A stretch of DNA of 64,000 bases from a virus (lineage: Duplodnaviria; Caudoviricetes): the IMG/VR virus record IMGVR_UViG_3300027991_000002, positions 1-64,000 of that record; one strand, given 5' to 3'. This document shows positions 3,628 to 41,730 of this stretch, piece by piece. Below the pieces are notes generated by a model, which had not been told where the DNA came from, searched no databases, and worked only from the letters and a program-made list of their open reading frames with translations. Both the position numbers and the translations under genes were made by a program. Numbering within the stretch: position 1 is the stretch's first letter; each line of letters opens with the position of its first letter.

Positions 3628-3856
3628 CAAAATTTTCGACAACAGAAAGAAAGTGGACGATGAGTGAATTGAAATTGTTGATAAAATAGTTTTCAACATT
3701 TGTAACATTCGTGTTTTGTTGACGTAATATTGCAACGTAATTTTTAAATAGAATCTGTGATGCCAAAAAAATATTTAAGAAAAAGTCAGCACGATGGGGT
3801 TAGCGTTTCGTCACAGATTCCGCGCCCCGTTGTGTCTGATGATAAAATCTGTGACT

Positions 3857-5990: not shown

Positions 5991-7837
5991 AGGAAATAGC
6001 CGTAAAATATTATGAACTTGGGCTTTCGGTTATTCCGATAAGCGAAGATAAAATTCCTACTATCAAATGGAAAGTTAATACCGAGCAGTTAATTTCGCCA
6101 AACGGAAATTTTAATTCGGTGTATGGCGTTGGAATTGTAGCCGGAAGTGTTTCAGGAAACTTAGAGTGCATTGACATTGATTGCAAGTATGACCTGACAG
6201 GGACTTTGTATGAAGATTACAAAAACGCCATTAACGATGCTGACAATGAGTTATTAAAAAAACTTGTCGTTGTAAAAACTCCGAGTGGTGGCTATCACTT
6301 CATTTACAGGTGCGAAAAAATAGACGGAAATAAGAAATTAGCAAAAAGATACGCAAACGAAGAAGAAAAAAAACTTAAAGAAAAAGAAAAGGTTTTGATT
6401 GAAACAAGGGGAGAGGGAGGATATTTTGCCTGTTATCCAACCCCTAAATATGAGTTTATTTACAAAGATTTTACACAAATTTCAACGATAACGGCAGATG
6501 AAAGGGACACGTTAATTGAGTGTGCGAAGGTTTTTAACGAAGTGGTCACTCAATCCCGAACATCGAAAAGTTACACTTCTTCTGAAAACGTATTTACACG
6601 ATTTAACGCCACAGGTGATGTAGAAAAAATATTAGAAGAATCAGGATGGACTTTTAAGGGTATTTGCAGAGGAAACAGGATGTACTTGCGCCCGAATGGA
6701 GAAAAAAAGTGGAGCGCAGGGTATCATCCTGACTCAAAGTTATTCAGAGTTTTCACGCAATCAAGTGAATTTGATAATGATACGACTTACAATCCGAGTC
6801 AGGTATTGGCTTACATAAAATTCAATAAAGATTTTTCAGAAACAGCTAAATGGCTTCAAAACAATGGATATGGAGATAGATTTACAGAAACTACCATAAC
6901 TTCGGAATTAAATTTCTTGGCATCAAAATACGAAACCGATGCTTATATAGAGCAAATCCGCAACGGAACTTTTCAGATGGGACTTACCACAGGTCACGCT
7001 TCGCTTGATAAACATTGGCTTTTTAAGCCGTCACAACTTGTGATGATGCTTGGGCATGATAACATAGGAAAATCCGTTTGCGCGTGGTATTTTGCAGTAA
7101 AAAGCGCGAAACTCCATAATTGGAAATGGGTAATATGGTCAGGAGAGAACAAAACAGGCGGGATTAAAAAAAAAATGATTGAATATTACTTTGTAAAGAA
7201 AATTGAGGACTTGACCACATCAGAATTAGCGCAAGGCAGAAAATGGTTTGACGAACATTTTGCAATTATTGACAATGATAATATTTACACCTACAAAGAC
7301 ATGATTGCAATGGGTAAAAAGTTGATGGAGAAAGAACACTACGACTATTTTTTAATTGACCCGTACAATGGTCTTTTAAAAGAGGATGAAAACGAGCATC
7401 AATACGATTACAAGGCAATGTTGGAGTTTCGGTTATTCATAAAACAAACGCATTGTGGAATTTTCCTGAATGTTCACGCAATTACAGAGGCATTACGCAG
7501 AGTTTATCCGAAAGGACACCGATGGGAGGGACACCCGATGCCACCGCGAAAGTCAGACGCGGAAGGCGGAGGAAAGTTCTGTAATAAAGCAGACGATTTT
7601 ATAGTTGCTCACCGCATGGTTCAGCATCCCGACTTATGGATGGACATGGAACTGCACATAGTTAAAATCAAAGAGGCGGAGTCGGGCGGAAAACACACAA
7701 ATTTGGATAATCCTGTAATTTTAAAGATGATGCGCGGGTCGGTAGGATATGAAGAAACAACAAATTATTCTCCTCCGGCAATCCGAGATTATACCGAGCC
7801 AACACAACTTGAAGATTCACCCGAACCGCCATTCTAA
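5987..7837 (+). CDS. Primase-helicase (prim-pol N-terminus plus SF4 DnaB-like helicase)
   Basis: GNLECIDID, KTPSGGYHFIY, IETRGEGGY; Walker A GHDNIGKS; FLIDPYN. Confidence 0.8.
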   Translation: MKEIAVKYYELGLSVIPISEDKIPTIKWKVNTEQLISPNGNFNSVYGVGIVAGSVSGNLECIDIDCKYDLTGTLYEDYKNAINDADNELLKKLVVVKTPSGGYHFIYRCEKIDGNKKLAKRYANEEEKKLKEKEKVLIETRGEGGYFACYPTPKYEFIYKDFTQISTITADERDTLIECAKVFNEVVTQSRTSKSYTSSENVFTRFNATGDVEKILEESGWTFKGICRGNRMYLRPNGEKKWSAGYHPDSKLFRVFTQSSEFDNDTTYNPSQVLAYIKFNKDFSETAKWLQNNGYGDRFTETTITSELNFLASKYETDAYIEQIRNGTFQMGLTTGHASLDKHWLFKPSQLVMMLGHDNIGKSVCAWYFAVKSAKLHNWKWVIWSGENKTGGIKKKMIEYYFVKKIEDLTTSELAQGRKWFDEHFAIIDNDNIYTYKDMIAMGKKLMEKEHYDYFLIDPYNGLLKEDENEHQYDYKAMLEFRLFIKQTHCGIFLNVHAITEALRRVYPKGHRWEGHPMPPRKSDAEGGGKFCNKADDFIVAHRMVQHPDLWMDMELHIVKIKEAESGGKHTNLDNPVILKMMRGSVGYEETTNYSPPAIRDYTEPTQLEDSPEPPF

Positions 7838-8058
7838 TGCAACCAACCCTCCACCGCTGGTGGTATTGCAACCAAACATTTCGCGTAAAAGGACAGGAAT
7901 TTACCTATCTTGAAGCGGACTTTGACGACAACCGAGAATCAATAATCAGGTTCACAGACGGCAAGAAACGCTATACAATGCCAGAAACAGAGTTTTTTAA
8001 AAAAGTTTCAACATTAAAATTTGAATTACCTAAACCCGAACTCCTGCTAACCCGATGA
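7837..8058 (+). CDS. Hypothetical protein (73 aa)
   Basis: ORF coupled to the primase stop codon. Confidence 0.5.
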   Translation: MQPTLHRWWYCNQTFRVKGQEFTYLEADFDDNRESIIRFTDGKKRYTMPETEFFKKVSTLKFELPKPELLLTR

Positions 8059-21283: not shown

Positions 21284-22315
21284 ATGCAAGCAACAGAAAC
21301 GAATGCCCTTGTTCAAGTAGTTGAAACAAGCGGACTCGAACAAACTAAAGGGCAAATCCTTTTAGGAATGTTCACCCCATACTTTAACCGTATGGCAGAA
21401 ATTGAGGGTAAAATTAATTTGCTCAATAAAGAAAATCCATCTCCTCAAGATGTGAGCGCGGCAAGAGATATTCGTATCTCTCTGATGAAAGAGGTTCGCA
21501 AGCCAGCCGAGCGCGTGAAGGATGAAGGAAAAAAGTCAATCCTTATTGAAGGTCGCCTGTATGACAATCTATACGGAGTGATTAACAACACCTCCAAAGG
21601 GCTTGAAATGCAATGTGAGCAAATTGAAAAGTTCGCTGAACTTCGAGATTTAAAAATGCGTGAAGAAAGAAAGGTTAAACGAGTAGAGCAACTTTCTCCC
21701 TATGTTCCTGATATTTCATTTTACGATTTACTCAATATGCCTGACGATGCTTTTAACTCATTACTTGCTACTCAAAAAGCAGGACAAGAGGCATTGTTAG
21801 CCCAACAAAAAAGAGAAGAAGAAGAAAGAATCGCAAAGGAAAAAGCTGATGCCGAAGCGCGTGAAGCACAGAGGGTAGAAAATGAACGGCTTAAAGCAGA
21901 GGCGGCAGAAAAGGAAAGGCAACTTGCCGAAGAACGCGCAAAAGTAGAAGCGGAGCGTAAAGCCGCAGAAGAAAAGTTACGCAAGGAAAGAGCCGAAGCC
22001 GATGCTAAAATAAAAGCCGCGCAGGAAGCGCAAGCCAAGGTTGAGGCAGAATTAAAAGCCAAAGCCGATGCAGAAGAAAAAGCGAAGCGTGAAGCCGAAG
22101 CAAAAGCAGCAGCCGAACTAAAAGCACAACAAGCCGCAGAAAAGAAAGCCGCGAAAGCACCTGACAAAGAAAAACTAAATAAATGGATTTCTGATTTTGA
22201 CTTGCAACCGCTTCTCACATTAAAAGATGCTGGCGCAAAACAAATTGAAGAAGATATAGTCAGAAAGTTTTCTGCATTTAAAACATGGGCATTGCAACAA
22301 ATCGAAACGCTATGA
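21284..22315 (+). CDS. Coiled-coil protein with an E/A/K/R-rich segment (343 aa)
   Basis: Long helical low-complexity region. Confidence 0.6.
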   Translation: MQATETNALVQVVETSGLEQTKGQILLGMFTPYFNRMAEIEGKINLLNKENPSPQDVSAARDIRISLMKEVRKPAERVKDEGKKSILIEGRLYDNLYGVINNTSKGLEMQCEQIEKFAELRDLKMREERKVKRVEQLSPYVPDISFYDLLNMPDDAFNSLLATQKAGQEALLAQQKREEEERIAKEKADAEAREAQRVENERLKAEAAEKERQLAEERAKVEAERKAAEEKLRKERAEADAKIKAAQEAQAKVEAELKAKADAEEKAKREAEAKAAAELKAQQAAEKKAAKAPDKEKLNKWISDFDLQPLLTLKDAGAKQIEEDIVRKFSAFKTWALQQIETL

Positions 22316-23322
22316 ACACAAAAGATTTTGAAGAAGTAAAAACCGTTTGGACGGATGACATTATCATTCACAAACAGCCGTATACCGTTTACAGAATAAA
22401 AGTTGGCGGAGGAAGAATTTACTATACGCTGGATGCAGACAATAATCCTACGTTCTATATTTCGCTCACCACCCTTACCAAGCATACGCTCCCAACGGGA
22501 GAACAATTAATAAAATGGATTGCTCAAACAGGGTACTATGAGTCTAAGAGATATATGAACGAAAGAGCAAACTACGGTACTTTAATGCACATGGCAATCG
22601 GACAATTCCTTATCTTAAAGTTTTGGAACTTTGAACAGTCCGAAGATTTTATTACCAACACTATTCAAGATGGGGCTATTGATGCTATTGAACCCGATAA
22701 GTATAATGATGACCTGAATCGTGACGTTGCCGCATTCGCTCAATTTTGTGTAGAGCATAAAGTAAGACCATTGGCAATAGAACTTGTACTTGTATCTAAT
22801 AAAGGGTACGCTACTTTAATTGACCTTGTGTGCAGAATGACTATTGAGGAGAAAGGGTACTTTGGAGAAACGTACAAGTCAGGAGTACAAAAAGGAAATC
22901 CGAAAGAATCAAAACGCGAAAAAGAAATCACCGCGCTGTTAAACTTTAAATCAGGCAAGAAAGGATTTTATGAGGAGAACGAAATTCAACTTGAGTTTGA
23001 AAAGAAATTGTTTGAAGAAAATTATCCTGAAATAAAAATTGACAAGATATTTAATTGGTCGCCTAAAGATTGGAACAACTCACCAACATATAATCTGAAA
23101 GACCAATCTGATTCATTGAACAAAGAAAAGGCAGATGCCCTACTTGCTATTGCCGCGATTGAGCTTATGAAAAAAACTCCGATGGAAAGAAAGTTAGTAG
23201 GCACACTTTCGCTTGGTCAAACTCCGCAAATTGAAGACAAAACTATTTATGATATTGTCAGGGAGCGAGCCGCGAAAAGGCACGTAGAGAATGTTCCGAA
23301 GAAAGAAGAAATGGCAATTTGA
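22312..23322 (+). CDS. PD-(D/E)XK-like exonuclease/recombination protein
   Basis: YYISLTT..ANYGTLMHMAI..AIELVL..YATLIDLVC..LNFKSG. Confidence 0.55.
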   Translation: MNTKDFEEVKTVWTDDIIIHKQPYTVYRIKVGGGRIYYTLDADNNPTFYISLTTLTKHTLPTGEQLIKWIAQTGYYESKRYMNERANYGTLMHMAIGQFLILKFWNFEQSEDFITNTIQDGAIDAIEPDKYNDDLNRDVAAFAQFCVEHKVRPLAIELVLVSNKGYATLIDLVCRMTIEEKGYFGETYKSGVQKGNPKESKREKEITALLNFKSGKKGFYEENEIQLEFEKKLFEENYPEIKIDKIFNWSPKDWNNSPTYNLKDQSDSLNKEKADALLAIAAIELMKKTPMERKLVGTLSLGQTPQIEDKTIYDIVRERAAKRHVENVPKKEEMAI

Positions 23323-23355: not shown

Positions 23356-23445
23356 ATAGAACGAAGAAGCACTAACGAATGTAAAATTTTTGCCATTGAA
23401 AACAGACAGATTAAAAATTTTATTTCGCTTTGTGCTGTGTTATGC
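23356..23445 (-). mobile_element. attC-like site 11 (90 bp, terminal)
   Basis: ATAGAAC..agcactaacgaatgtaaaattttt / aaaaattttatttcgctttgtgct..GTTATGC. Confidence 0.7.
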
Positions 23446-23531
23446 GAGTGCGCATGGATTTTATGCGGTGGGGTTCGTTCTTTTTTCTGTTTTCAATTTT
23501 TAGCGTTGGCATTAATTAAACAATCATAAAT

Positions 23532-23948
23532 ATGAAAAGGCAACAAACAATAGTATCGGAAAAAGAAATCCTGAAACTCGGTGGAGTTGATAAGGGATAT
23601 AAATTTGAACGCACCAAGCATGAACATGGGGATAGAGAAAAAATATTCTATAAGCAATGGAAGAAGGAAAATAAGCAGTTACGATGGCTAAACTTCGGGC
23701 AGGGAATATTGCAGGATTTATTTGCCATTACTGGTAATAATCCTTTCAACTTTATGAGGGGAGGATTGATAGGTTGGAAATTAATAATCAACAGGAGGGA
23801 TAGATACATTGTGGCAACAGTGATGCAATGGCTCGGAACAAATTGCGGTTGGTGCTGGCTTGAAGAAACACTTAGGAAGTGCGGGTACAGATTAGAAAAA
23901 ATTGAGCGGGAGGAAAAAATTGAAAACAGAAAAAAGAATGTCGCATAA
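23532..23948 (+). CDS. Cassette gene, hypothetical (138 aa)
   Basis: Stop TAA lies inside the GCATAAC core box. Confidence 0.65.
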   Translation: MKRQQTIVSEKEILKLGGVDKGYKFERTKHEHGDREKIFYKQWKKENKQLRWLNFGQGILQDLFAITGNNPFNFMRGGLIGWKLIINRRDRYIVATVMQWLGTNCGWCWLEETLRKCGYRLEKIEREEKIENRKKNVA

Positions 23949-24000
23949 CGGCAAACGCTTTATGCCGTTATTTTCAATGGCATTAAAGCGTATGTTCTAT
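23943..24000 (-). mobile_element. attC-like site 10 (58 bp)
   Basis: Minus strand: ATAGAAC-ATA-CGCTTTAATGCC-loop-GGCATAAAGCG-TTTGCC-GTTATGC. Confidence 0.85.
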
Positions 24001-24025
24001 TTAGGTTTTTAAAATTCTTTGAGCG

Positions 24026-24238
24026 ATGGCAAACAAAATATGCAGAATAACAATATTAGCTTTCATGTTCGGAGATATACCGAAAGGAATTGAGAACGGA
24101 TATGATGATTGGGACTTAGAAAACGGAATACAATATTGTGAAGAATTGATGCGCTATGAAGGAATGACACATGAACCGATGGATAAGTTTGAGTTGAAGA
24201 AATATATTGAATGGGCAAAACAGAAATTGAAAGAGTGA
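24026..24238 (+). CDS. Cassette gene, hypothetical (70 aa)
   Basis: ORF lies between matching cassette-end IRs. Confidence 0.6.
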   Translation: MANKICRITILAFMFGDIPKGIENGYDDWDLENGIQYCEELMRYEGMTHEPMDKFELKKYIEWAKQKLKE

Positions 24239-24261
24239 GTGTGGCAATTTTAAAAACTTGA

Positions 24262-24598
24262 ATAGAACGTTGCTCGGATTGAAGAATGTAAATTAAAATT
24301 ATAGCGATGCACAAGAACAGAACAGCAAACGGATTAAGGTTGCAAGAGCAACATAACCAACGTTACAAGAAAATGTTGATAGGAAAAAAAGCGAAGGACG
24401 GGCGAACGGTTATTAACACAGAATGGATTGGAAACAGCACATACGGATGTGTTCGATTATTTTTCGATAATCAAACCGATGATTTATGTAGTAGTACAAT
24501 GGGATTTAAACCGACAAGAGAGGATTTTACAGACAGGTACGGAATTACATGGTGAGCGATGGCAATTTTAATTTATTTCTTTCAATCTGGTGTTAGTT
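24262..24598 (-). mobile_element. attC-like site 9 (337 bp, gene in loop)
   Basis: ATAGAAC..ggattgaagaatgtaaattaaaatt / aattttaatttatttctttcaatct..GTTAGTT. Confidence 0.8.
24307..24555 (+). CDS. Cassette gene inside the attC loop, hypothetical (82 aa)
   Basis: ORF bracketed by AGCGATG direct repeats. Confidence 0.6.
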   Translation: MHKNRTANGLRLQEQHNQRYKKMLIGKKAKDGRTVINTEWIGNSTYGCVRLFFDNQTDDLCSSTMGFKPTREDFTDRYGITW

Positions 24599-24628
24599 TT
24601 AGTTTTTAACAGGCAAACAAAATAGAAA

Positions 24629-24820
24629 ATGGAAAAGTTATCAGACAAAGCAGAAAAGAGAATTAAGAAAATCTATCCTGATGCGAGGGCAGAGAGGGAT
24701 GGCGCAATGTTCTTTATAGTAACTGACTTACTTAAAGGAGAGGACAGAACTTTAGGTGGTGGATTTAGCAGAGATGGCGCGTGGTGTAGCGCGGGTTGCT
24801 CTGTGCCTGTTAAAAATTGA
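24629..24820 (+). CDS. Cassette gene, hypothetical (63 aa)
   Basis: Stop codon abuts the AACTAAC core box. Confidence 0.6.
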   Translation: MEKLSDKAEKRIKKIYPDARAERDGAMFFIVTDLLKGEDRTLGGGFSRDGAWCSAGCSVPVKN

Positions 24821-25166
24821 AACTAACGAGGAAGGATTTGTGAAGTAAAATTTTCGATTAAAAACTATAACCTTTAAAAACAGAAAAGCGATGGAAGTAA
24901 AAGGATTTTATATCAGAAGCAATGGCGACCCTTCGGTTGGTATATTCTCTGCTCAATGGGAATTGCGAAATGACTTCGTATTTGACGACATAGAAGATTT
25001 GGAATATTTCAGGTCGGGGCTTGCGCGTTTGCTCGGTGAGCATTGCGGGGAGAGGTGCTATGTGCAAACTTTTGAGGAGTGGGCTGAACAAATTAAATTA
25101 GAAGAAAAAATGTGTAGTGACGCACAGAAGGAAGAAAATTTTATTTCATCAAATCCTGTGTTGTCG
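24821..25166 (-). mobile_element. attC-like site 8 (346 bp)
   Basis: AACTAAC..aggatttgtgaagtaaaatt / aattttatttcatcaaatcct..GTTGTCG. Confidence 0.8.
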
Positions 25167-25253
25167 GATAGTTTGCCTTTTGATTTAGCAAGTCATCCTG
25201 ACACAGAAGCTGACGGACATGTATTCTGCGGTAAATGTGGAAAAGAAAAGTGA
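24891..25253 (+). CDS. Cassette gene, hypothetical (120 aa); starts in the attC loop and reads through the arm
   Basis: ORF track; ends 10 nt before CGACAAC. Confidence 0.6.
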   Translation: MEVKGFYIRSNGDPSVGIFSAQWELRNDFVFDDIEDLEYFRSGLARLLGEHCGERCYVQTFEEWAEQIKLEEKMCSDAQKEENFISSNPVLSDSLPFDLASHPDTEADGHVFCGKCGKEK

Positions 25254-25263
25254 GGCAAATTTC

Positions 25264-25795
25264 CGACAACGGGAAGGGGATTGAAGAATGTATTTTAATT
25301 TTTTAGCATGGGCAAACTAATGGTAACACCAATATTCCAAAACGAAGCGTTCGCGTTCATCGAACAACACCACAGGCATCATAGAAAGCCAGTAGGCAGC
25401 GTGTTTCAGATTGCAGTGAGCGAGGGTGAGCGTGTGGCAGGGGTGGCGGTTGTTGGCAGACCAAACGGACGAAAACAGCAGGACGGATTTACATTAGAAG
25501 TTACACGGCTATGCACAGACGGAACTAAAAATGCCTGCTCAATGCTTTATGCAGCTTGCTGGAGAGCAGCCAAAGAATTAGGTTATCGAAAACTGATTAC
25601 ATACATACTGAACACTGAGCCGGGGACATCATTAAAAGCAAGCGGGTGGAGATGCGTTGGGGAGCGCGGTGGCGGGAGTTGGAACGTACCGAGCCGCCCC
25701 CGTGTTGACAAACATCCGTTGCAGAAAAAATTGTTATTTGAAATCGAGTAGCGCGATGGGAAAATTAAAATATTTCTTTCAATCCCATGTTGTTG
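25264..25795 (-). mobile_element. attC-like site 7 (532 bp, gene in loop)
   Basis: CGACAAC..gggattgaagaatgtattttaatttt / aaaattaaaatatttctttcaatccc..GTTGTTG. Confidence 0.8.
25308..25751 (+). CDS. XF1762-family / Mom-like GNAT-fold protein (cassette gene in attC loop)
   Basis: FIEQHHRHH..GVAVVGRP..LEVTRLCTDG..NACSMLYAACWRAAKELGYRKLITY..SLKASGW. Confidence 0.75.
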   Translation: MGKLMVTPIFQNEAFAFIEQHHRHHRKPVGSVFQIAVSEGERVAGVAVVGRPNGRKQQDGFTLEVTRLCTDGTKNACSMLYAACWRAAKELGYRKLITYILNTEPGTSLKASGWRCVGERGGGSWNVPSRPRVDKHPLQKKLLFEIE

Positions 25796-25828
25796 GCAGC
25801 GTAGCTGAGTTTGCTTTTCGCAAATTGC

Positions 25829-26038
25829 CAACAACGTCACGCAGGATTTATGAAGGATTTTTTACGATTTTAAAACCAACAAATATGAAAACACCAAAAG
25901 AAATTTTAGAAGGAAAACAAGCATTCAAAGATTTCCTGTATAAAGCACCCGACTGGATTAGGGAAGACATTATTGCAGCAATGATGGAATACGCATTGGA
26001 GCAAGTAAAAAATCTTTCATTAAATCCTGTTGTTGTTG
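25829..26038 (-). mobile_element. attC-like site 6 (210 bp)
   Basis: CAACAAC..caggatttatgaaggattttttac / gtaaaaaatctttcattaaatcctg..GTTGTTG. Confidence 0.8.
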
Positions 26039-26145
26039 GGCGCAGCGAACAGTTAAAATCTGACTTGTACAAATTCAGGGATATGTATTGTCAAAATATT
26101 GACTTAGCTACCATAGATGAATATGTTGACGGCTTAGGATTTTAA
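25887..26145 (+). CDS. Cassette gene, hypothetical (MKTPKEILEG..)
   Basis: ATG 25887 follows an AT-rich leader; the upstream extension in the track crosses cassette boundaries and was rejected. Confidence 0.55.
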
Positions 26146-26149
26146 TTGC

Positions 26150-26280
26150 CAACAACGTTCATCGGATTTATTCTCGTTGCATTAAATGATAAAAACTTAA
26201 ACCATAAATAAAACTCATTATGAAAAACAAACCTACGATTAAAAAGAAAGCCAGCAATGGAATGAAATCCGTTGTTCATG
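26150..26280 (-). mobile_element. attC-like site 5 (131 bp)
   Basis: CAACAAC..cggatttattctcgttgc / gcaatggaatgaaatccg..GTTCATG. Confidence 0.75.
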
Positions 26281-26540
26281 GCAGTGCGGATAAATGGTCA
26301 AAAATTAAGTGGAGCAAAAAAGTTTTGCAAAAAGCGCAGGAAAATCATATCTGGTTGAACGCTTTTGATTGCGTAAGACCGACACCTGCATTCTGCGAAA
26401 GTCTTGGTAGGTCAATCATCAATAAATTACGGGATGAAGAAAATTTAATCCCGATGAGTGGCATTACATCGGATGTTGAAGCGATGCGAGAGATTGCAAA
26501 ACTTACCCCGATAATGTACATGAGCATTAACAAGAGCTAA
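26220..26540 (+). CDS. Cassette gene, hypothetical (106 aa)
   Basis: Starts in the attC loop and ends before CATGAAC. Confidence 0.6.
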   Translation: MKNKPTIKKKASNGMKSVVHGSADKWSKIKWSKKVLQKAQENHIWLNAFDCVRPTPAFCESLGRSIINKLRDEENLIPMSGITSDVEAMREIAKLTPIMYMSINKS

Positions 26541-26554
26541 GATGTGAGCATTGC

Positions 26555-26611
26555 CATGAACGGTAGAGATTGTTGCCGTTAATTTCAATGGCATACAATC
26601 TAATGTTATCT
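26555..26611 (-). mobile_element. attC-like site 4 (57 bp)
   Basis: Minus strand: AGATAAC-ATTA-GATTGTATGCC-loop-GGCAACAATC-TCTACC-GTTCATG. Confidence 0.85.
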
Positions 26612-26643
26612 GCCGTTTTGGATTAACTAAATAAATATAAATT

Positions 26644-26949
26644 ATGAAAGCAAAAGAGTATGCACAAAGGGTAACAAGTACAGAAAATGTTCAAGATGCA
26701 ATGACTGAGCTTGGCAAATGCGGAAAAGATTTTTTCAACGAATTTATCGCAATGAGAAAATCACGTAACATAAAAACCGATGATGGATTATTAACGCTGG
26801 TGAAAGAGTTCGATAATAAATTCAGAACATTTTCTGTACTTGTGGATTCACACTACAAAGGGATGGTTAAACCAAATGGATTCATTGAACTGCTTCGGGA
26901 GTTTGTTCCTGTACTTGCTAATGAATATGAAAGGAAAAATGGCAGATAA
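26644..26949 (+). CDS. Cassette gene, hypothetical (101 aa)
   Basis: Stop TAA lies inside the AGATAAC core box. Confidence 0.65.
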   Translation: MKAKEYAQRVTSTENVQDAMTELGKCGKDFFNEFIAMRKSRNIKTDDGLLTLVKEFDNKFRTFSVLVDSHYKGMVKPNGFIELLREFVPVLANEYERKNGR

Positions 26950-27778
26950 CGGTTACGGCTTTAAGCAGTGGGGATTATTAGCACAAATGTTCAATCGAAG
27001 CGATAAAAAAAATAAAGAAAAATTTTTAGGGAGGCATTTTTAATTTAATCATTTAATCATAAATAAAACAAAATGGAAAAAGTAACAAACACAGCAAAGA
27101 ACCCACGACTTGAATGGTTGATGGGTGGAAATCCTAATGCTATTGAAGCACAGGAAGTGCAAGGACAAAAGGAACTTGTGAAATCATCACAACTACCAGC
27201 GAAAGTAAATTCGCCAAGAGGAGTGAACATTGAGGAGCAATACGCCTTGATGGGAATAAAAGTAATTGGCAAAACCAAAGGAGATGAATTATTCCTTGAT
27301 GTGGAATTGCCAAATGGGTGGAAGAAGGAAGCAACCGACCATTCAATGTGGAATAAATTGGTTGATGATAAAGGAAGGGAAAGGGCAAGTTTCTTTTACA
27401 AAGCTGCATTTTATGACCGAGATGCTTTTGTGAATTTTAGCACACGGTATAATTGGAATGCCAATTACGAGGATAAGGACAATGTGAGCTACTTTGTAAA
27501 AGATAACTCCATAGGTGAAATTGTATTTGAAACAGAAAAGATGAGTAAAGATGTAAAACAGCCGAACTACTTTAAAATACAGGATGAGTTACAAAACCAA
27601 TGTAAACAATTTCTGAAAGACAAGTTCCCTGAACACGAAAACATAAATGCTTATTGGAATTAAATCATTTAATCATTAAGAGCGTGGGCAAAAATTTTTC
27701 TTTATTTTTTTTCGTTCATATCAGCACGAACTTAAATATGGAGCGATACACCCCATTGCTTTAAAGCCGATGTTATGC
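26944..27778 (-). mobile_element. attC-like site 3 (835 bp, gene in loop)
   Basis: AGATAAC..cggctttaagcagtgggg / ccccattgctttaaagccg..GTTATGC, plus inner arms aaaaaaataaagaaaaattttt / aaaaatttttctttattttttt. Confidence 0.8.
27073..27663 (+). CDS. Cassette gene in attC loop, conserved phage hypothetical (196 aa)
   Basis: GRERASFFYKAAFYDRDAF motif; flanked by a 14-bp direct repeat. Confidence 0.65.
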   Translation: MEKVTNTAKNPRLEWLMGGNPNAIEAQEVQGQKELVKSSQLPAKVNSPRGVNIEEQYALMGIKVIGKTKGDELFLDVELPNGWKKEATDHSMWNKLVDDKGRERASFFYKAAFYDRDAFVNFSTRYNWNANYEDKDNVSYFVKDNSIGEIVFETEKMSKDVKQPNYFKIQDELQNQCKQFLKDKFPEHENINAYWN

Positions 27779-27940
27779 GAAGTTGCCAATACCAAATTCA
27801 AAAAGACAAAAAACTCATTGGCAATTTTGCATAACGTTCGAGGATAAACGAAGTGCATGAGTAACCGAAAAATTAACTGAACAGCAAGTAAGAAATTTTA
27901 ATAAAAATATTTTTAGGGAGGGAATTTAAAAAACAACATT

Positions 27941-28099
27941 ATGAAAATAAACTTTGATGTGAACCTGCCGGATTGGTTTGTAATAACCGGACTTACTGTT
28001 TTTACAGTTTGGATGATTCTTGACATAATAAAAAACTGGCTCAAACTTATCATTTGGAATTATGAGAGGAAAATTAAAAAAATGGAAAACGAAAAGTAA
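27941..28099 (+). CDS. Small membrane protein (52 aa; not in the ORF track)
   Basis: MKINFDVNLPDWFVITGLTVFTVWMILDII..; TAATG coupling to the next gene. Confidence 0.5.
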   Translation: MKINFDVNLPDWFVITGLTVFTVWMILDIIKNWLKLIIWNYERKIKKMENEK

Positions 28100-28524
28100 T
28101 GGCAATCTTAAACTATACAACCTCCATTGATTCTGAAAAGACAATCGGAGAGATTCAAAAATGCTTAGTGAAGCACGGGGCAATGAAAATCACCACTGAT
28201 TATCAGAACGGGATTCCATGCGCTGTTACTTTCTGCCTAATCATCAAAGAGAATATGGTTGGGTTTGCATTGCCAGCAAATTATTCAGGCGTTCTCAGGG
28301 CAATGAAGCGAGATGGAAAAGTTCCGCGCTCAAAATGCACAGAGGAGCAGGCAATAAAAGTTTCATGGAGAATAGTGAAAGACTGGGTTGAAGCGCAGAT
28401 GGCAATAGTTGAAGCTGAACTTGCACAGATGGCGGAAGTGTTTTTGCCGTATGCAGTTACAAAGAATGGAAACACTCTTTGGAAACAGATGGAAGGAAAC
28501 GGAATGTTATTACTTAACTCTTAA
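28099..28524 (+). CDS. Cassette gene in attC loop, conserved phage hypothetical (141 aa)
   Basis: NYTTSID..WRIVKDWVEAQMA..EVFLPY. Confidence 0.65.
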   Translation: MAILNYTTSIDSEKTIGEIQKCLVKHGAMKITTDYQNGIPCAVTFCLIIKENMVGFALPANYSGVLRAMKRDGKVPRSKCTEEQAIKVSWRIVKDWVEAQMAIVEAELAQMAEVFLPYAVTKNGNTLWKQMEGNGMLLLNS

Positions 28525-28692
28525 CCTTTTTACAATTTGAAAAATTGTGATGAGCGTAGGCAAAATATTTTTATTAAAATTTCTCTAACCGTAATTGACA
28601 GTACAGATGGAAGCATTTCGTTTATCCTTTGTTATCAGATGAAAAATTATCCCTTTTGAGCGCGGGATGCTCGTAATTTAATAATTACAAAA

Positions 28693-28890
28693 ATGAAAAC
28701 ATGGGAATATAAAATTAATAGCGTAAATGAATATGATGCTTTTGAAAATGTTGGCGGCTCGGTTGCCGAAAGAATTTTAGATGGAGCGTCAAAAGACGGA
28801 TGGGAATTAGTGTCTGTTGTCGGAATAAACACAATGGTAATTTTTTACTTTAAAAGAGAATTAAATAATGGAGGTGCGGTGGCGGGATAA
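28693..28890 (+). CDS. DUF4177-like protein (cassette gene)
   Basis: WEYKI..GWELVSVV..FYFKRE. Confidence 0.6.
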   Translation: MKTWEYKINSVNEYDAFENVGGSVAERILDGASKDGWELVSVVGINTMVIFYFKRELNNGGAVAG

Positions 28891-28899
28891 TTTTTTTTC

Positions 28900-29027
28900 T
28901 GATAACGGATGAAGATAAAAGAAGCAGCCCTAAATAGAATGTTCAGCGGGTACGTAACCGATAGGGTAACTGAACTTAGGCAGACCTCCGATTTTGCTCG
29001 GCTGTTTCTTTTTATCTTGTGTTGTGT
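28900..29027 (-). mobile_element. attC-like site 1 (128 bp)
   Basis: TGATAAC..aagataaaagaagcagcc / ggctgtttctttttatctt..GTTGTGT. Confidence 0.8.
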
Positions 29028-29085
29028 GAGAGCATAGGGATTTCAGGCGATGGGCAGTTTTTAACTTAAAATAATTTTAAAGCGT

Positions 29086-29400
29086 ATGGCAAAGATTTAT
29101 TTCAGCAAATACAATGATGAGGAAGTGGCTTATACATTGGACTATTGGAAAACTTACATGGAAGAAAACCTCATTGAAGAAATGACATTGTTTGAAGGCA
29201 AGCGAATGACAGGCGAGGGCTATTTCTATTGTAAAGAATACTTTGAAGTTGGATTAGCGAGAGAGTCATGTGGAAAGATATGCGAGGGATATAAGCCGAA
29301 CAATGGCAAGAATGGCAGATGCAAACATTATGGATATTGCTATGAGCCAACAGATAAAAGGTTGGTGTTGCAAGCGGGCGGAAAAATTATTTTAAGTTAA
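29086..29400 (+). CDS. Cassette gene, Cys-rich hypothetical (104 aa)
   Basis: CKEY..CGKICEGYKP.NGKNGRCKHYGYCY. Confidence 0.6.
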   Translation: MAKIYFSKYNDEEVAYTLDYWKTYMEENLIEEMTLFEGKRMTGEGYFYCKEYFEVGLARESCGKICEGYKPNNGKNGRCKHYGYCYEPTDKRLVLQAGGKIILS

Positions 29401-29407
29401 AAATTTC

Positions 29408-29470
29408 ACACAACAAATATATGTATTTTTCTCTTACAACTATTTGAAACTTAAACCATAACACCATGCA
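29408..29470 (-). mobile_element. Candidate attI site
   Basis: Minus-strand G|TTGTGT core matches cassette 1 but has no attC arms; lies just upstream of the int-like gene. Confidence 0.55.
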
Positions 29471-29492
29471 AAATTTTTTGTATATTTAAAAC

Positions 29493-30062
29493 ATGAATAA
29501 CGCTCTCATTTATGCTTTAGCTTGTCCGGAAACAGGTCAAATAAAATATGTTGGCAAAACAAATCATTCATTAAAAAGAAGATTGCAAAATCATATAAAT
29601 AACAAGAGGTCAAAAAGCAGGTGCTCTTTTTGGATTAGAGAATTAAAAAGTAAAAATATCTATCCTGAAATAATATTACTTGAAACAGTAATTGATGGGC
29701 TATGGAGATTTAGAGAATCAGAATGGATAAAAAACTTTGGCAGAGATAATTTATTAAATGAAAACGCAGGCGGTGGAGGAATGGGGACATCTAAGATAAA
29801 TTATGTTTTTTCTTTTTCCGAATCTCTTTCACAATATTCTGAAAACACTAAGAGAAACTATTTAAGCATAGTAAAAATATTCTTACATGAACATGGATGC
29901 GTTTCAACATCAGCAGTTATTATTAATAAAAAAATGATTGAAAATTATATGATGAGATTTAAGAATAGACACAGTTATAATCAAACCTTGTCTGCATTAA
30001 AAAAATTCTTTTTATTTTTAGGTCAACCAAGAAAATTAAATGCAATTAAATATTGGTATTAA
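29493..30062 (+). CDS. GIY-YIG nuclease fused to an integron-type integrase N-terminal (SAM-like) domain; no catalytic recombinase domain
   Basis: LIYALACPETGQIKYVGKT..RL..H..E (GIY-YIG); YSENTKRNYLSIVKIFL..SYNQTLSALKKFF..QPRK (IntI-like core-binding domain). Confidence 0.7.
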   Translation: MNNALIYALACPETGQIKYVGKTNHSLKRRLQNHINNKRSKSRCSFWIRELKSKNIYPEIILLETVIDGLWRFRESEWIKNFGRDNLLNENAGGGGMGTSKINYVFSFSESLSQYSENTKRNYLSIVKIFLHEHGCVSTSAVIINKKMIENYMMRFKNRHSYNQTLSALKKFFLFLGQPRKLNAIKYWY

Positions 30063-30260: not shown

Positions 30261-30656
30261 TCACTCAATAAATAAAACTTCTTGTTGGAAATTCTTATTC
30301 ATGCCAAAATGAATACTTTTATTTTTGAAATTTATTCCAATTCGTTGCATACCTAATTTTAAAGCTGATTTTACATATAGATATGCTTTATGGCTGTCCC
30401 AAGTTCCAGCAGGTCTTTTGCAAAGAATATCGGCTACCTCTGTGGGTATAAACGTATGCTCATCTGTGGCGAATCCCCCTACTGCAACTGAATGTTCAGG
30501 AGTGGAATAGGTTCGTGTGACAATTATCGGAACTCCTGCATCCTCGCGTATGTCATCCAATAGTTTTATGAATTCAAAAGTACACTTCTCAAAGTCAATG
30601 TTTTTATCATTGAGCGATGAGAAGTGCTTAAAAGAATTTGCTTGGTCAGGTGTCAA
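30261..30656 (-). CDS. Endolysin, peptidase M15-like
   Basis: LLDDIREDAGVPIIVT..H..ADI..RIGI..SIHFG. Confidence 0.7.
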   Translation of the reverse strand: MTPDQANSFKHFSSLNDKNIDFEKCTFEFIKLLDDIREDAGVPIIVTRTYSTPEHSVAVGGFATDEHTFIPTEVADILCKRPAGTWDSHKAYLYVKSALKLGMQRIGINFKNKSIHFGMNKNFQQEVLFIE

Positions 30657-40021: not shown

Positions 40022-41730
40022 TAGTTGGCGCGATTGGTTTCGTAACTGTCAACACCTGCGCCTGTAATCAGAAAATCAATAAAATCAAAGTTCGCACCGA
40101 CTCCTACAAAAGCTATTGCCCCTTTTAGTCGAGGATTATTTGCCGCAAGTCCTGAGTTGATTGTAAGCGTTATTCCTGTGTCAGGAATCAATCTGAAATT
40201 TCTTGTAAGAGTGGCGGGTGCAGATGGTTTAACGATAGAATTAATGGTATAGGTGGGATTTGCCCCTTGTAAAACAAATGCGCCTGCAATAGTATATTTT
40301 TGAGGAATCGTTAAAACATTTGCCGCAAAAATCGCTGCATCATCTAAGTCAAGATTAACTTTTAGAGTTGAAGTGTTGTTATCATTGGAATTGCTACTTC
40401 CGATAGTTTGTCCTGAAAAAGAATAATCAATCGTTGCGTTTATTCCACCACCTAAAAAAATATTTGAACTTAAATTATTTCCATTGGTAATATCAATAGT
40501 ACCTCCTGCATCTATTATTGTTTGATTGTAAAAAACACCTTCATTAAGATTAGTAAAATAAAGAGTCGAACTCCCAATTAAATTATTGTCAGCTATAAAT
40601 CCTCTTTGATTTAAACATGAAAGAGTTGAACCACTTTCAACAAAGTTTCCTGATACATTATCATTGCCCCATTGAAATACTGCAATAACTCCTGCATTAT
40701 TCCCATCTGAAACTTTATTCTGTCTTTTGTCTGCACGGTAAACTAAAATGTCATCAGCAAATTTGTATTGTATGTCATCAACTTCATTTATGTAGCCGTT
40801 AGTCACAGACGGAGTAAGCAACTGATAAGCGGTATTGTTAGTAACGGGGTCTGTACCGTTGAAAGCTGTTTCATCAATCACCACGTAATGACTCCCATTC
40901 CAAAAAACAACATTGCCATTTACAAGTATTGCAGGTGCAGGATAAGTAACCGTCAATTCATTTGCTGAAACTCCTGTCCCATTATCTATCGTATTGCCCG
41001 GCACGTAAAAGTTCGCAGGTGTCGTTCTGAATATCGTTATCGTGCTTCCGTCATCCGAGATACAAGTTCCTACTGCTCCGTTGGCGGCTTCCGTTATCGT
41101 CTCGCCTGCTACGAAATTACCGCCTATTAAAGTGTCGTAGGTTATCGTAACAAGTTCAAGTCCTGTATGCCATACGCCTGCATTGGCTGATGCTCCGTTG
41201 TAAAGAACATAACCCGCAACTCCGCTATAATCACCTGCGCCTTGAAAATCGGGATTAAGAGCGTTCAACCATCCGTTTAAAAGAGGAGTATGAGTAGGGT
41301 TAGTTGATGTATCAATAGGCAATAAAATACTGCGGTCTGTGATGTAGATTTTGTCGTAAAGAGTGGTATTGATTCCATTTGACAGCGCATTTGAAATATT
41401 GGTATAAGTATCTATCAACGTCCCGCCCCCTCCTGTACGAGCATGCCATTGGCGAACTCCGAAAGCGTCTGTGCCGTAATCATAATTAGGAGGTACTGTG
41501 GAAAGGTCATTCATTAATTCAAATGGTGCGCCCTGAGAACCGATACCTACTATTGAATTGCGAGTGAATAACTGACTGCCGAGCCATTTTAGGAAACCTG
41601 TAAAATCAGTTTGAAAATTCTCCCACAACTTTTGCCCTGTGGTTTGCCTTTGGGAAATACGCACTCTCTCTTTGCCTGTGATTTGCGAGGCATTGAGGAA
41701 CTTTTCAGAACTTGTGGGTTTAGAACTCAT
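40018..41730 (-). CDS. Tail fibre/spike-like virion protein (570 aa)
   Basis: N/G/T-rich, beta-helix-like C-terminal half. Confidence 0.65.
   Translation of the reverse strand: MSSKPTSSEKFLNASQITGKERVRISQRQTTGQKLWENFQTDFTGFLKWLGSQLFTRNSIVGIGSQGAPFELMNDLSTVPPNYDYGTDAFGVRQWHARTGGGGTLIDTYTNISNALSNGINTTLYDKIYITDRSILLPIDTSTNPTHTPLLNGWLNALNPDFQGAGDYSGVAGYVLYNGASANAGVWHTGLELVTITYDTLIGGNFVAGETITEAANGAVGTCISDDGSTITIFRTTPANFYVPGNTIDNGTGVSANELTVTYPAPAILVNGNVVFWNGSHYVVIDETAFNGTDPVTNNTAYQLLTPSVTNGYINEVDDIQYKFADDILVYRADKRQNKVSDGNNAGVIAVFQWGNDNVSGNFVESGSTLSCLNQRGFIADNNLIGSSTLYFTNLNEGVFYNQTIIDAGGTIDITNGNNLSSNIFLGGGINATIDYSFSGQTIGSSNSNDNNTSTLKVNLDLDDAAIFAANVLTIPQKYTIAGAFVLQGANPTYTINSIVKPSAPATLTRNFRLIPDTGITLTINSGLAANNPRLKGAIAFVGVGANFDFIDFLITGAGVDSYETNRANY

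What the first reader, a model, noticed from the sequence alone, without database searches (positions are those of the whole stretch)
23356..30062. Integron-like cassette array carried inside a phage genome
Seen: 11 imperfect hairpins, each opening with nnnnAAC and closing with GTTnnnn. Every closing heptamer is the exact reverse complement of the next opening one: GTTATGC 23439/GCATAAC 23943; GTTCTAT 23994/ATAGAAC 24262; GTTAGTT 24592/AACTAAC 24821; GTTGTCG 25160/CGACAAC 25264; GTTGTTG 25789/CAACAAC 25829; GTTGTTG 26032/CAACAAC 26150; GTTCATG 26274/CATGAAC 26555; GTTATCT 26605/AGATAAC 26944; GTTATGC 27772/GCATAAC 27829; GTTATCA 28631/TGATAAC 28900; GTTGTGT 29021/ACACAAC 29408. Two sites are 57-58 bp. 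Established: this cassette-specific core complementarity is the signature of IntI recombination at G|TT in integron attC sites. Inference: the phage captures and shuffles small accessory genes with an integron-type system placed between its exonuclease and lysis genes. Integrons are normally described on chromosomes, plasmids and transposons, so an array embedded in a phage replication/early region is unusual.
Basis: partly seen in the sequence, partly recalled or inferred. Interest (0 to 1): 0.95.

Follow-up and report, generated by a model that had tools for sequence, protein, structure and literature searches.

The report
Integron-like gene-cassette array in phage
About 6 kb of this Bacteroidota phage is a row of eleven swappable gene cassettes bounded by folding hairpin sites; related phages run this integron-like system with a Xer-type recombinase, of which this phage keeps only a truncated remnant.

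Summary
All 11 closing GTTnnnn are exact reverse complements of the next nnnnAAC. Every segment between junctions is closed by its own inverted repeat.

The integron-type reading is supported, with four corrections.
1. The enzyme is not IntI. A relative of similar size, G001, ends the same kind of array with a 394-aa protein: GIY-YIG, core-binding domain, then a Xer-like tyrosine recombinase domain that lacks the IntI-specific insertion. The window's ORF 29493-30062 is a truncated copy with no catalytic domain, so this array is CALIN-like.
2. In cultured relatives, crossover maps to the + strand AAC. Polaribacter phages Freya_1, 5, 6, 8, 9 and 10 are otherwise 99.7-100% identical and differ only by whole cassettes joined exactly at nnnnAAC|.
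3. The cassette genes lie on the strand that resembles the attC bottom strand and point toward the recombinase. Six hairpins carry part or all of a gene in the loop.
4. attC clusters in virulent phages were already published (Qi et al. 2023), including this hairpin type in Polaribacter phage P12002L.

Earlier agents of this scan reached the same reading on other Bacteroidota phage genomes. The GIY-YIG fusion clade did not turn up among the scan's notes.

The parts
22285..23322 (+). Left flank: exonuclease gene. The array starts 34 nt after its stop.
   Evidence: phrog_298 exonuclease, 2.6e-19. Homologues only in Bacteroidota phages.
23363..23949 (+). Cassette 1. B hairpin 23356-23445 (90 bp, no gene). 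A body 23439-23949 holds gene 23532-23948 (138 aa). Ends GCATAAC|.
   Evidence: Perfect 24-nt inverted repeat 23478-23501 / 23915-23938.
23950..24268 (+). Cassette 2. 58-bp B hairpin 23943-24000 with loop TGCCGTTATTTTCAATGGCAT. A body 23994-24268 holds gene 24026-24238 (70 aa).
   Evidence: DNA fold -12.1 kcal/mol, z -4.0. 23-nt inverted repeat. Covariation with relatives.
24269..24827 (+). Cassette 3. B hairpin 24262-24598 holds gene 24307-24555 (82 aa) in its loop. A body 24592-24827 holds gene 24629-24820 (63 aa).
   Evidence: Arms 24277-24300 / 24564-24587 and 24592-24615 / 24804-24827. Duplex energies -22.7 and -32.1 kcal/mol.
24828..25270 (+). Cassette 4. B hairpin 24821-25166 and A body 25160-25270. 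One gene, 24891-25253 (120 aa), starts in the B loop and reads through the closing arm into A.
25271..25835 (+). Cassette 5. B hairpin 25264-25795 holds a Mom-like DNA-modification gene 25308-25751 (147 aa) in its loop. A body 25789-25835 is an empty 47-bp hairpin.
   Evidence: phrog_1384 1.4e-38, Pfam Mom 2.6e-7. Arms 25277-25302 / 25761-25786. The A hairpin folds with z -3.7.
25836..26156 (+). Cassette 6. B hairpin 25829-26038 and A body 26032-26156. Gene 25885-26145 (86 aa) spans both.
26157..26561 (+). Cassette 7. B hairpin 26150-26280 and A body 26274-26561. Gene 26220-26540 (106 aa) spans both.
26562..26950 (+). Cassette 8. 57-bp B hairpin 26555-26611. A body 26605-26950 holds gene 26644-26949 (101 aa).
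   Evidence: z -4.0. 85% identical to G001 4906-4960, while the neighbouring genes are unrelated.
26951..27835 (+). Cassette 9. B hairpin 26944-27778 holds gene 27073-27663 (196 aa) in its loop. A body 27772-27835 is an empty 64-bp hairpin.
   Evidence: Perfect 23-nt inverted repeat 27005-27027 / 27690-27712. The A hairpin folds with z -4.4.
27836..28906 (+). Cassette 10. B hairpin 27829-28637 holds genes 27941-28099 (52 aa) and 28099-28524 (141 aa). A body 28631-28906 holds gene 28693-28890 (65 aa).
   Evidence: Perfect 23-nt inverted repeat 27891-27913 / 28562-28584, and 28631-28653 / 28884-28906. phrog_17260.
28907..29414 (+). Cassette 11. 128-bp B hairpin 28900-29027. A body 29021-29414 holds gene 29086-29400 (104 aa). 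Ends ACACAAC|.
   Evidence: 28-nt inverted repeat 29051-29078 / 29383-29410. B fold z -3.0.
29408..29492 (+). Last, unpaired nnnnAAC plus the spacer upstream of the recombinase gene. Candidate attI-like site, diverged in this phage.
   Evidence: Aligns with the conserved AACGGTAWATATACGCAAT...TATAACTAATTGA upstream of full-length recombinase genes in G001, L145, L146 and L147. In the Freya phages all cassette junctions join to this position.
29493..30062 (+). Truncated recombinase gene (189 aa). It keeps the GIY-YIG nuclease domain and a SAM-like core-binding domain. The tyrosine-recombinase catalytic domain is deleted.
   Evidence: PF01541 1.3e-7, PF02899 1.1e-4. 39% identity to aa 1-87 of the 394-aa G001 protein. 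Alignment A2 ends at the linker between the core-binding and catalytic domains. No catalytic remnant in the genome. No other roughly 190-aa homologue. The model is confident for aa 1-88 only, and its best PDB matches are I-TevI, T4 EndoII and UvrC.
30261..30656 (-). Right flank: convergent endolysin gene.
   Evidence: Peptidase_M15_3. phrog_894 endolysin.

Best explanation
Window 23356-29414 is an array of eleven mobile gene cassettes. It belongs to an integron-like system native to phages of Bacteroidota.

Anatomy. On the + strand each cassette consists of an imperfect attC-like hairpin (type B: AAC-G, an unpaired spacer, a stem, a variable loop, the stem again, T-GTT) followed by a body (type A). 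The body's two ends, GTTnnnn... and ...nnnnAAC, are complementary. The cassette ends at nnnnAAC|.

Enzyme. In relatives, a phage-encoded Xer-type tyrosine recombinase gene sits directly downstream of the last AAC. In this clade it carries an N-terminal GIY-YIG nuclease domain. Whole cassettes are excised, inserted or replaced by exchange at the AAC triplet.

Inferred mechanism. By analogy with integrons, the + strand folds as single-stranded DNA and plays the role of the attC bottom strand. Four features point that way: the AACG...TGTT signature, the bulge in the 3' arm, the excess of G.T pairs, and crossover in the 5' arm. This step is not shown.

Expression (inferred). The genes lie on that same strand and point toward the recombinase. 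They would therefore be read from upstream early promoters, not from a promoter at the integrase end.

State of this phage. The recombinase gene is cut off after the core-binding domain. The array is most likely a frozen, CALIN-like copy that could move only with a recombinase supplied by a co-infecting relative.

Cargo. It is accessory: one Mom-like anti-restriction gene, and otherwise small proteins of unknown function.
For: In the window:
- Chain rule met 11 of 11 times. Cognate arm pairing about -24 kcal/mol against about -10 for non-cognate arms, for all 22 segments.
- The opening AAC is followed by G in 11 of 12 sites, and the closing GTT is preceded by T in 11 of 11.
- Of 14 ORFs, 0 cross an nnnnAAC| boundary, while 3 read across a GTT site.
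- The + strand stems hold 54 G.T pairs against 8 on the minus strand, and the + strand is the more stable in 21 of 22 segments.
- The 57-58-bp hairpin keeps one fold in three phages. 5 of 15 stem pairs show compensatory change, and 91% of cells pair against 47% or less when the partner is slid.

Enzyme in relatives:
- G001 (74.7 kb, direct terminal repeats, like this 75-kb phage) has the same chained array. It ends at a 394-aa ORF with PF13495 (2e-11), PF00589 (8.9e-28) and a GIY-YIG N-terminus homologous to the window ORF.
- Sixteen such proteins were found. Those with readable DNA upstream (G001, L145) sit beside hairpin arrays; one more has only small upstream genes on record, and two contigs start at the attI-like site.
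- Shorter Xer-like recombinases without the GIY-YIG domain end similar arrays: L127 read in full, L128 and L136 by site scan only, and Polaribacter phages Leef and Freya.

Natural recombination:
- Freya_9 lacks 307 bp of Freya_10.
- Freya_8 lacks 902 bp.
- Freya_5 lacks 3,198 bp.
- Freya_1 lacks 4,942 bp (12 genes).
- Freya_6 carries a different 472-bp cassette.
- Every junction is nnnnAAC| joined to the next unit or to ACCCCT upstream of the integrase, in otherwise 99.7-100% identical DNA.
- The Danklef/Freya mosaic blocks also begin and end at AAC.

Published support: a hairpin of this design in Polaribacter phage P12002L was predicted as an attC site (PMC9892861). That phage has the same chained array at the same genomic position.
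Against: - No recombination event is documented for this phage itself. It has no catalytic tyrosine recombinase. Near-identical genomes are not on hand.
- The cultured phages that show cassette indels belong to other families, and their integrases are only 26-32% identical to the G001 enzyme.
- The recombinase lacks the IntI insertion (I2 helix) that published work ties to single-strand attC recombination (PMC7790495 abstract). The folded-ssDNA mechanism is therefore an analogy, not a finding.
- The P12002L site of this design was the one site IntI1 did not recombine.
- Six B hairpins have loops of roughly 150-750 nt, far beyond known attC sizes.
- The G.T excess lies on the sense strand, which is equally what an mRNA structure would give. 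Part of it follows from G>C skew: non-cognate controls also favour the + strand, by 2.1-2.7 kcal/mol.
- The 57-bp hairpin is shared between G000 and G001 although the adjoining bodies are unrelated. Exchange at AAC alone does not explain this.
Confidence: 0.8

Rival explanations
1. The inverted repeats work mainly in RNA. Each cistron of a long early transcript is enclosed by a stem that directs processing (for example RNase III) or protects the message. On this view the AAC/GTT regularity is a by-product.
For: All genes are on the + strand. Stems of 19-28 bp bracket the ORFs. G.U-compatible pairs number 54 on the sense strand against 8 on the antisense strand. No promoter-like motif lies between the genes.
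Against: - It does not explain why every stem ends in the same AAC/GTT triplet shared by two alternative pairings.
- It does not explain why a tyrosine recombinase gene closes the array in several phage lineages.
- It does not explain why near-identical isolates differ by whole units cut exactly at AAC.
- It may still be a second, added function.
Confidence: 0.07
2. The hairpins are passive hot spots. Cassettes are shuffled by general or microhomology-mediated recombination, or by gene conversion after cuts by the associated homing-type nucleases (GIY-YIG here, HNH in Freya and P12002L). This would resemble the promoter-stem-loop (PeSL) shuffling of T4-type phages, and the tyrosine recombinase would serve lysogeny only.
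For: - A nuclease gene or domain accompanies the arrays looked at for one.
- The GIY-YIG catalytic residues are invariant in the family.
- Freya junction sites share up to 13 nt (TTGTTnCnAAC).
- Bartlau et al. read the integrase as a marker of lysogeny.
Against: - Junctions share as little as the 3-nt AAC and are exact in every case.
- The recombinase gene always abuts the last AAC, with a conserved site upstream.
- The GIY-YIG domain is fused to the recombinase, not free-standing.
- The sites vary in sequence but keep their structure, as attC sites do, rather than being conserved direct repeats like PeSL.
Confidence: 0.1
3. The array is a fragment of an ordinary bacterial chromosomal integron (a CALIN) that the phage picked up from its host.
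For: Qi et al. 2023 describe phage CALINs and discuss capture from hosts. Close relatives of the recombinase are common in Bacteroidota chromosomes.
Against: - The same architecture sits at the same place, at the end of the early genes before the convergent lysis genes, in this phage and in P12002L. It lies beside a phage-encoded recombinase in Freya, Leef, G001, L127 and L145.
- Gene orientation is reversed relative to classical cassettes.
- Composition and gene style are those of the phage.
- The recombinase remnant is homologous to those of phage relatives.
Confidence: 0.03

Closest known systems
Classical integrons and CALINs (IntI, attI, attC cassette arrays)
   Same: - Imperfect hairpin sites that open nnnnAAC and close GTTnnnn.
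- Cassette-specific complementarity of the cores.
- An unpaired spacer and a bulged base.
- Site sequences that vary while the structure is kept.
- A tyrosine recombinase gene next to the insertion end.
- Whole-cassette gain and loss at the conserved triplet.
- Here, as in a CALIN, no working integrase.
   Different: - The recombinase is Xer-like, without the IntI insertion, and falls below the IntI model cut-off.
- It is fused to a GIY-YIG domain in this clade.
- It is transcribed in the same direction as the cassette genes and lies downstream of them.
- The genes lie on the bottom-strand-like strand.
- Cassette ends pair over 19-28 nt.
- Six sites carry part or all of a gene in the loop (about 200-835 bp against the usual 57-141 bp).
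- A site of this design was not recombined by IntI1 (PMC9892861).
CALIN of Polaribacter phage P12002L (Qi et al. 2023, PMC9892861)
   Same: - The hairpin design is the same. P12002L_attC1 reads TGCTAAC-G-GCTAC-GGCTAAACGG...CCGTTTTAGCC-AT-T-GTTAGGC.
- Genes are co-oriented.
- The genomic position is the same, before the convergent endolysin.
- There is no integrase.
- The cargo is of the anti-restriction type, DNA methylases there and a Mom-like gene here.
   Different: - The paper reports two predicted sites and treats them as bacterial integron components carried by a phage.
- It does not describe the chained A/B architecture, or genes inside loops.
- It does not link the sites to a phage-encoded Xer-like recombinase.
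- It does not report cassette polymorphism among isolates.
Xer-dependent elements: pdif modules of Acinetobacter plasmids, and CTX-phi-type IMEX that use a folded ssDNA site (from my own knowledge, not tested here)
   Same: - A Xer-family recombinase.
- Modules bounded by sites in alternating orientation (pdif).
- A folded single-strand hairpin as substrate for a Xer enzyme (CTX-phi).
   Different: - No 11-6-11 dif-like duplex site is evident at the junctions.
- The recombinase is encoded by the element itself.
- The units form long ordered arrays beside one attI-like site.
PeSL (promoter-early stem-loop) cassettes in hyperplastic regions of T4-type phages (from my own knowledge)
   Same: Small accessory genes in a phage early region, separated by stem-loops and shuffled as modules.
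   Different: PeSLs are conserved direct repeats with a promoter and recombine by homology. Here the sites are cassette-specific inverted repeats with a fixed AAC/GTT core, a dedicated recombinase and exact junctions.

Membership tests
Integron | Integrase of the IntI clade, carrying the IntI-specific additional domain (I2 helix) | tested here: not met
   The window ORF has no catalytic domain. Its full-length relative scores TIGR02249 at 131.8 bits against a cut-off of 265. Its best model is XerA at 162 bits. Residues 208-245 of VchIntIA (2a3v) have no counterpart.
Integron | attC sites: imperfect hairpins that open RYYYAAC and close GTTRRRY | tested here: met
   11 of 11 hairpins have the AAC/GTT cores, with cognate arm pairing and z-scores. 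The four outer bases do not follow RYYY strictly.
Integron | Cassette-specific complementarity: the core at the start of a cassette complements the core that opens its own attC | tested here: met
   11 of 11 exact 7-mers. 0 of 200,000 permutations reach this.
Integron | Unpaired central spacer and extrahelical bases that mark one strand | tested here: inconclusive
   The spacer is asymmetric (AAC-G plus 4-7 nt on one side, 1-3 nt plus T-GTT on the other). The + strand has a conserved G.T pair next to the triplet. The short hairpins have one bulged base in the 3' arm. The number and position of bulges differ from attC sites.
Integron | attC length of about 57-141 bp, with no gene inside | tested here: not met
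   Five sites measure 57-131 bp. Six measure about 200-835 bp and carry part or all of one or two ORFs between the arms.
Integron | Detection by the attC covariance model (IntegronFinder) and recombination by an IntI | not testable with these tools
   Rfam 15 gives no hit and the IntegronFinder model is not on hand. In print, HattCI predicted the homologous P12002L_attC1, but it gave no attC x attI1 product with IntI1.
Integron | Whole-cassette gain and loss by exchange at the conserved triplet, next to an attI site beside the integrase gene | tested here: met
   Met in relatives, not in this genome. Five Freya variants and the Danklef mosaic break exactly at nnnnAAC|. A conserved site lies upstream of the recombinase genes.
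Integron | Cassette ORFs on the top strand, reading away from attI and intI, expressed from Pc | tested here: not met
   The ORFs lie on the strand that reads AACG...TGTT and point toward the recombinase gene, which is co-directional and downstream.
CALIN (cluster of attC sites lacking an integrase) | Two or more attC sites with no functional integrase nearby | tested here: met
   Eleven attC-like sites. The only recombinase gene is truncated, and the genome has no PF00589 domain. The formal definition rests on the attC model, which could not be run.
Xer/dif systems | Xer-family recombinase acting on a 28-bp duplex site made of two 11-bp arms and a 6-bp spacer | tested here: inconclusive
   The recombinase is Xer-like by best hit but below all curated cut-offs. 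Inspection of the 23 junctions showed no dif-like inverted 11-mers around AAC. No formal search was run.
GIY-YIG homing endonuclease (I-TevI / Seg type) | GIY-YIG catalytic residues, in a free-standing nuclease with its own DNA-binding domain | tested here: inconclusive
   The catalytic set Y7, Y19, R30, H34, E75, N91 is invariant in 17 sequences. The fold matches I-TevI, EndoII and UvrC. However, the domain is the N-terminus of a tyrosine recombinase in all full-length relatives, so this is not a classical free-standing homing enzyme.

The most novel reading that the evidence does not exclude
Phages of Bacteroidota own an integron analogue of independent design. Its enzyme is a Xer-type recombinase without the I2 helix thought necessary for single-strand attC recombination. 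In this clade the enzyme is fused to a conserved, apparently active GIY-YIG nuclease. That nuclease might make the second-strand cut, or resolve the half-exchanged junction, a step classical integrons leave to replication. The cassettes are two-hairpin units that can carry genes inside the attC-like loop. If so, this is a second, natural solution to cassette capture, and a possible window on how integrons and their cassettes arose.
Probability: 0.3. Interest if true: 0.9.

Novelty: new variant of a known kind. Interest (0 to 1): 0.8.

Why it matters
- It gives phages of a major bacterial phylum a dedicated machine for swapping accessory genes, many of them probably anti-defence genes. Here the cargo includes a Mom-like gene, and relatives carry DNA methylases. 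Cultured isolates show that the machine is active in nature.
- It changes how "integrase" genes in lytic-looking flavobacterial phages should be read. They need not indicate lysogeny.
- It bears on the origin of integrons. A Xer-like enzyme without the IntI-specific helix sits beside attC-like hairpins. The current account is that this helix was the innovation that allowed single-strand recombination.
- The GIY-YIG fusion suggests a testable way to complete an exchange without replication.
- In practice, such arrays break metagenomic assemblies. Several contigs start exactly at the attI-like site. The arrays also account for the genome-size variation among near-identical Freya phage isolates.

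Tried and rejected
- Rfam scan of the window: no family at gathering score. On G001 only a chance miRNA hit.
- Megablast of 20-32 kb against isolated phages: no match.
- A 15-mer from the hairpin arm (GGATTGAAGAATGTA) scanned in viral contigs: 118 or more chance hits, useless.
- The search for related loci with the truncated ORF: nothing.
- The other TGTT...AACG pairs in the genome (12621/13359, 15958/16275, 36557/37241) have no hairpin arms. They are chance matches.
- The Bacteroidota -7 promoter motif TAnnTTTG is not enriched (84 against 77 expected). The array's only two + strand copies lie inside ORFs, so there is no evidence for cassette promoters.
- Contexts of homologues of cassette protein 28099-28524: tightly packed phage or chromosomal genes, not obviously arrays, so they give no junction information. 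The 196-aa cassette protein also belongs to a very large family.
- Comparison of the genes next to the shared 57-bp hairpin in G000 and G001: unrelated.
- Structure model of the 189-aa ORF: confident only for the GIY-YIG domain. The core-binding part is helical but has pLDDT below 60, so the fold search says nothing about it.
I tried no other route.
- L001 is cut at the contig end after three cassettes.

Full report
**What is in the sequence**

Each closing heptamer is the exact reverse complement of the next opening one, 11 of 11 times. Non-neighbouring pairs match in 5 of 121 cases, all from duplicated cores. No permutation in 200,000 reaches 11.

Essentially every small + strand gene between 23.3 and 29.4 kb sits between its own inverted repeat of 19-28 nt, and three of these repeats are perfect over 23-24 nt. 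These 6 kb hold 13 of the 23 inverted repeats of 18 nt or more in the 64-kb window. They also hold 12 of the 23 TGTT...AACG pairs in the 75-kb genome, where shuffles give about 9 per genome.

**Two classes of segment**

The region is a chain of 22 segments of two alternating kinds.
- Type B segments open AAC and close GTT. They are imperfect hairpins.
- Type A segments open GTTnnnn and close nnnnAAC, with near-perfect ends.

Cognate arms pair at -24.5 kcal/mol (B) and -23.6 kcal/mol (A), against -9.8 and -10.5 for non-cognate arms. Short segments fold as DNA with z-scores of -2.6 to -4.4.

Either kind can be empty. The B hairpins measure 57, 58, 90, 128 and 131 bp (the 131-bp one holds only a gene start), and the empty A hairpins 47 and 64 bp. 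Either kind can also hold genes. Six B hairpins carry part or all of one or two ORFs between their arms.

**The enzyme**

The ORF right after the array (29493-30062, 189 aa) has a GIY-YIG domain and a marginal SAM-like core-binding domain. The phage is a 75,207-bp record with direct terminal repeats, and it has no tyrosine-recombinase catalytic domain anywhere.

A loop motif of the 57-bp hairpin led to G001, a 74.7-kb phage with direct terminal repeats. G001 has the same chained array. That array ends at a 394-aa ORF with these features:
- Its first 87 residues are 39% identical to the window ORF.
- The rest is Phage_int_SAM_4 (2e-11) plus Phage_integrase (8.9e-28).
- It is Xer-like. XerA scores 162 bits and the IntI model 132 bits, both below cut-off.
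- The alignment to VchIntIA skips that protein's residues 208-245, the IntI-specific insertion.

Sixteen such fusion proteins exist in public data. In their alignment the GIY-YIG catalytic set (Y7, Y19, R30, H34, E75, N91) is invariant. The window protein stops at the linker before the catalytic domain. No other roughly 190-aa form exists. The window gene is therefore a truncated remnant.

A conserved sequence lies between the last AAC and the start codon in full-length members. It is diverged in the window.

**Spread**

The same arrays, co-oriented with and directly upstream of a Xer-like recombinase gene, occur in several places:
- L145, which carries a fusion-type enzyme.
- L127, read in full, with a 279-aa enzyme lacking GIY-YIG. 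L128 and L136 were seen by site scan only.
- The cultured Polaribacter phages Leef and Freya.

L001 and Polaribacter phage P12002L have arrays without a recombinase in the stretch held. In P12002L the array sits just before the convergent endolysin, as it does here.

The window phage is distantly related to Cellulophaga phages phi38:1 and Calle. Its exonuclease has homologues only in Bacteroidota phages.

**The decisive comparison**

Ten Freya isolates range from 43,978 to 48,920 bp. Measured against Freya_10, in DNA that is otherwise 99.7-100% identical:
- Freya_9 lacks 307 bp (one gene).
- Freya_8 lacks 902 bp.
- Freya_5 lacks 3,198 bp.
- Freya_1 lacks 4,942 bp (12 genes).
- Freya_6 has a different 472-bp unit.

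Every junction is ...nnnnAAC| joined either to the G that opens the next hairpin or to ACCCCT just upstream of the integrase. Blocks shared by Danklef and Freya at 99.6% also start and stop at AAC. The Danklef integrase is itself truncated.

It places the exchange on the AAC side of the + strand.

**Polarity**

Five observations agree that the + strand corresponds to the attC bottom strand:
- Crossover lies in the 5' arm at AAC.
- AAC is followed by G, and GTT is preceded by T, which gives a G.T pair on this strand only. The attC strands cloned in PMC9892861 read the same way.
- The single bulge lies in the 3' arm.
- Stems hold 54 G.T pairs on the + strand against 8 on the minus strand. Non-cognate controls show a smaller bias, 2.1-2.7 against about 4.1-4.4 kcal/mol.
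- With cassettes defined from AAC to AAC, 0 of 14 ORFs cross a boundary, while three ORFs read across a GTT site.

So each cassette is a hairpin followed by a body. The genes lie on the bottom-like strand and point toward the recombinase. That is the reverse of classical integron cassettes.

**Structure conservation**

The 57-58-bp hairpin occurs twice in the window, once in G001 (85% identity) and in L145. It keeps one fold: 7 bp, a bulge, 8 bp and a 6-nt loop. Five of 15 stem pairs have changed on both sides, and 91% of cells pair against 47% or less when the partner is slid. The genes beside it in G000 and G001 are unrelated. Exchange at AAC alone does not explain this, and I leave it open.

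**Comparison with what is known**

Qi et al. 2023 (PMC9892861) reported attC clusters in virulent phages. One of their sites, P12002L_attC1, has exactly this design, and it was the one site that IntI1 failed to recombine.

Bartlau et al. 2021 (PMC8776804) read the Freya, Leef and Ingeline integrases as signs of lysogeny and do not mention arrays.

Further searches of the held papers found no description of four things:
- a phage-encoded Xer-like recombinase tied to such arrays;
- the GIY-YIG fusion;
- genes inside the hairpin loops;
- the Freya cassette polymorphism.

Earlier agents of this scan reached the same general reading on other Bacteroidota phage genomes. I saw their notes only after my own analysis. 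No note on the GIY-YIG clade turned up.

**Verdict**

The feature is real and far beyond chance. It works like an integron, but it is not a member of the IntI/attC family in the strict sense. In this genome it is a recombinase-dead copy.

Shown:
- the anatomy of the array;
- the truncation of the window's recombinase gene;
- the link between arrays and recombinase genes in relatives;
- exact AAC junctions in natural variants.

Inferred:
- the folded single-strand mechanism;
- trans-mobilisation of this array by a recombinase from another phage;
- any role of the GIY-YIG domain;
- expression of the cassettes from upstream promoters.

Noticed in passing
L123 (G001) 22-122, 1792-1892, 3231-3331, 3812-3912, 4809-4909; L145 450-598, 2854-3000, 3281-3423: G001 carries five copies of a 101-bp GC-rich 'empty' module, GTTCCCC...GGGGAAC (identical over the 25-32 nt printed at each end). 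It folds at -29.9 kcal/mol with z -4.25. The four copies with upstream sequence visible are preceded by the same 25 nt. L145 has a comparable composite repeat of about 145 bp. These could be selfish or regulatory empty cassettes.
   Followed up: partly
window 24020, 24553, 25750, 27680, 28550, 29050: A motif close to GAGCGATGGCAA(A/T)TTT recurs at gene starts and just after stop codons. It looks like leftover gene starts (ATGGCA encodes Met-Ala), perhaps scars of earlier gene loss inside cassettes.
   Followed up: no
window 28099-28524: This 141-aa cassette protein belongs to a family of more than 1,500 clusters; the 120 best listed are 71-83% identical. It is found in phage contigs and in what look like Bacteroidota chromosomes. 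That is unusually conserved for a small phage accessory gene of unknown function.
   Followed up: partly
window 26674-26692 / 26825-26843: A perfect 19-nt inverted repeat lies inside the coding sequence of gene 26644-26949.
   Followed up: no
L139 (Freya_10) 4969-5592; L144 (Danklef_1) 5999-6622; L157 (P12002L) 7544-8029: A nuclease keeps company with the recombinase end of these arrays. An HNH gene follows the integrase directly in Freya and Danklef. An HNH gene lies near the array end in P12002L. In the window's clade the GIY-YIG domain is fused to the recombinase.
   Followed up: no
L144 (Danklef_1) record 40978-41491: The Danklef integrase is cut down to 44 aa. A copy of a hairpin 5' arm (AACGTGCGATTGTAAGG..., also present at 39176) is joined to the middle of the integrase gene. 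This is a second, independent case of recombinase loss next to an array.
   Followed up: partly
L146 1-92; L147 1-63: Two metagenomic contigs that carry the fusion recombinase begin close to the attI-like site. This suggests that population heterogeneity or repeats in these arrays break assemblies.
   Followed up: no
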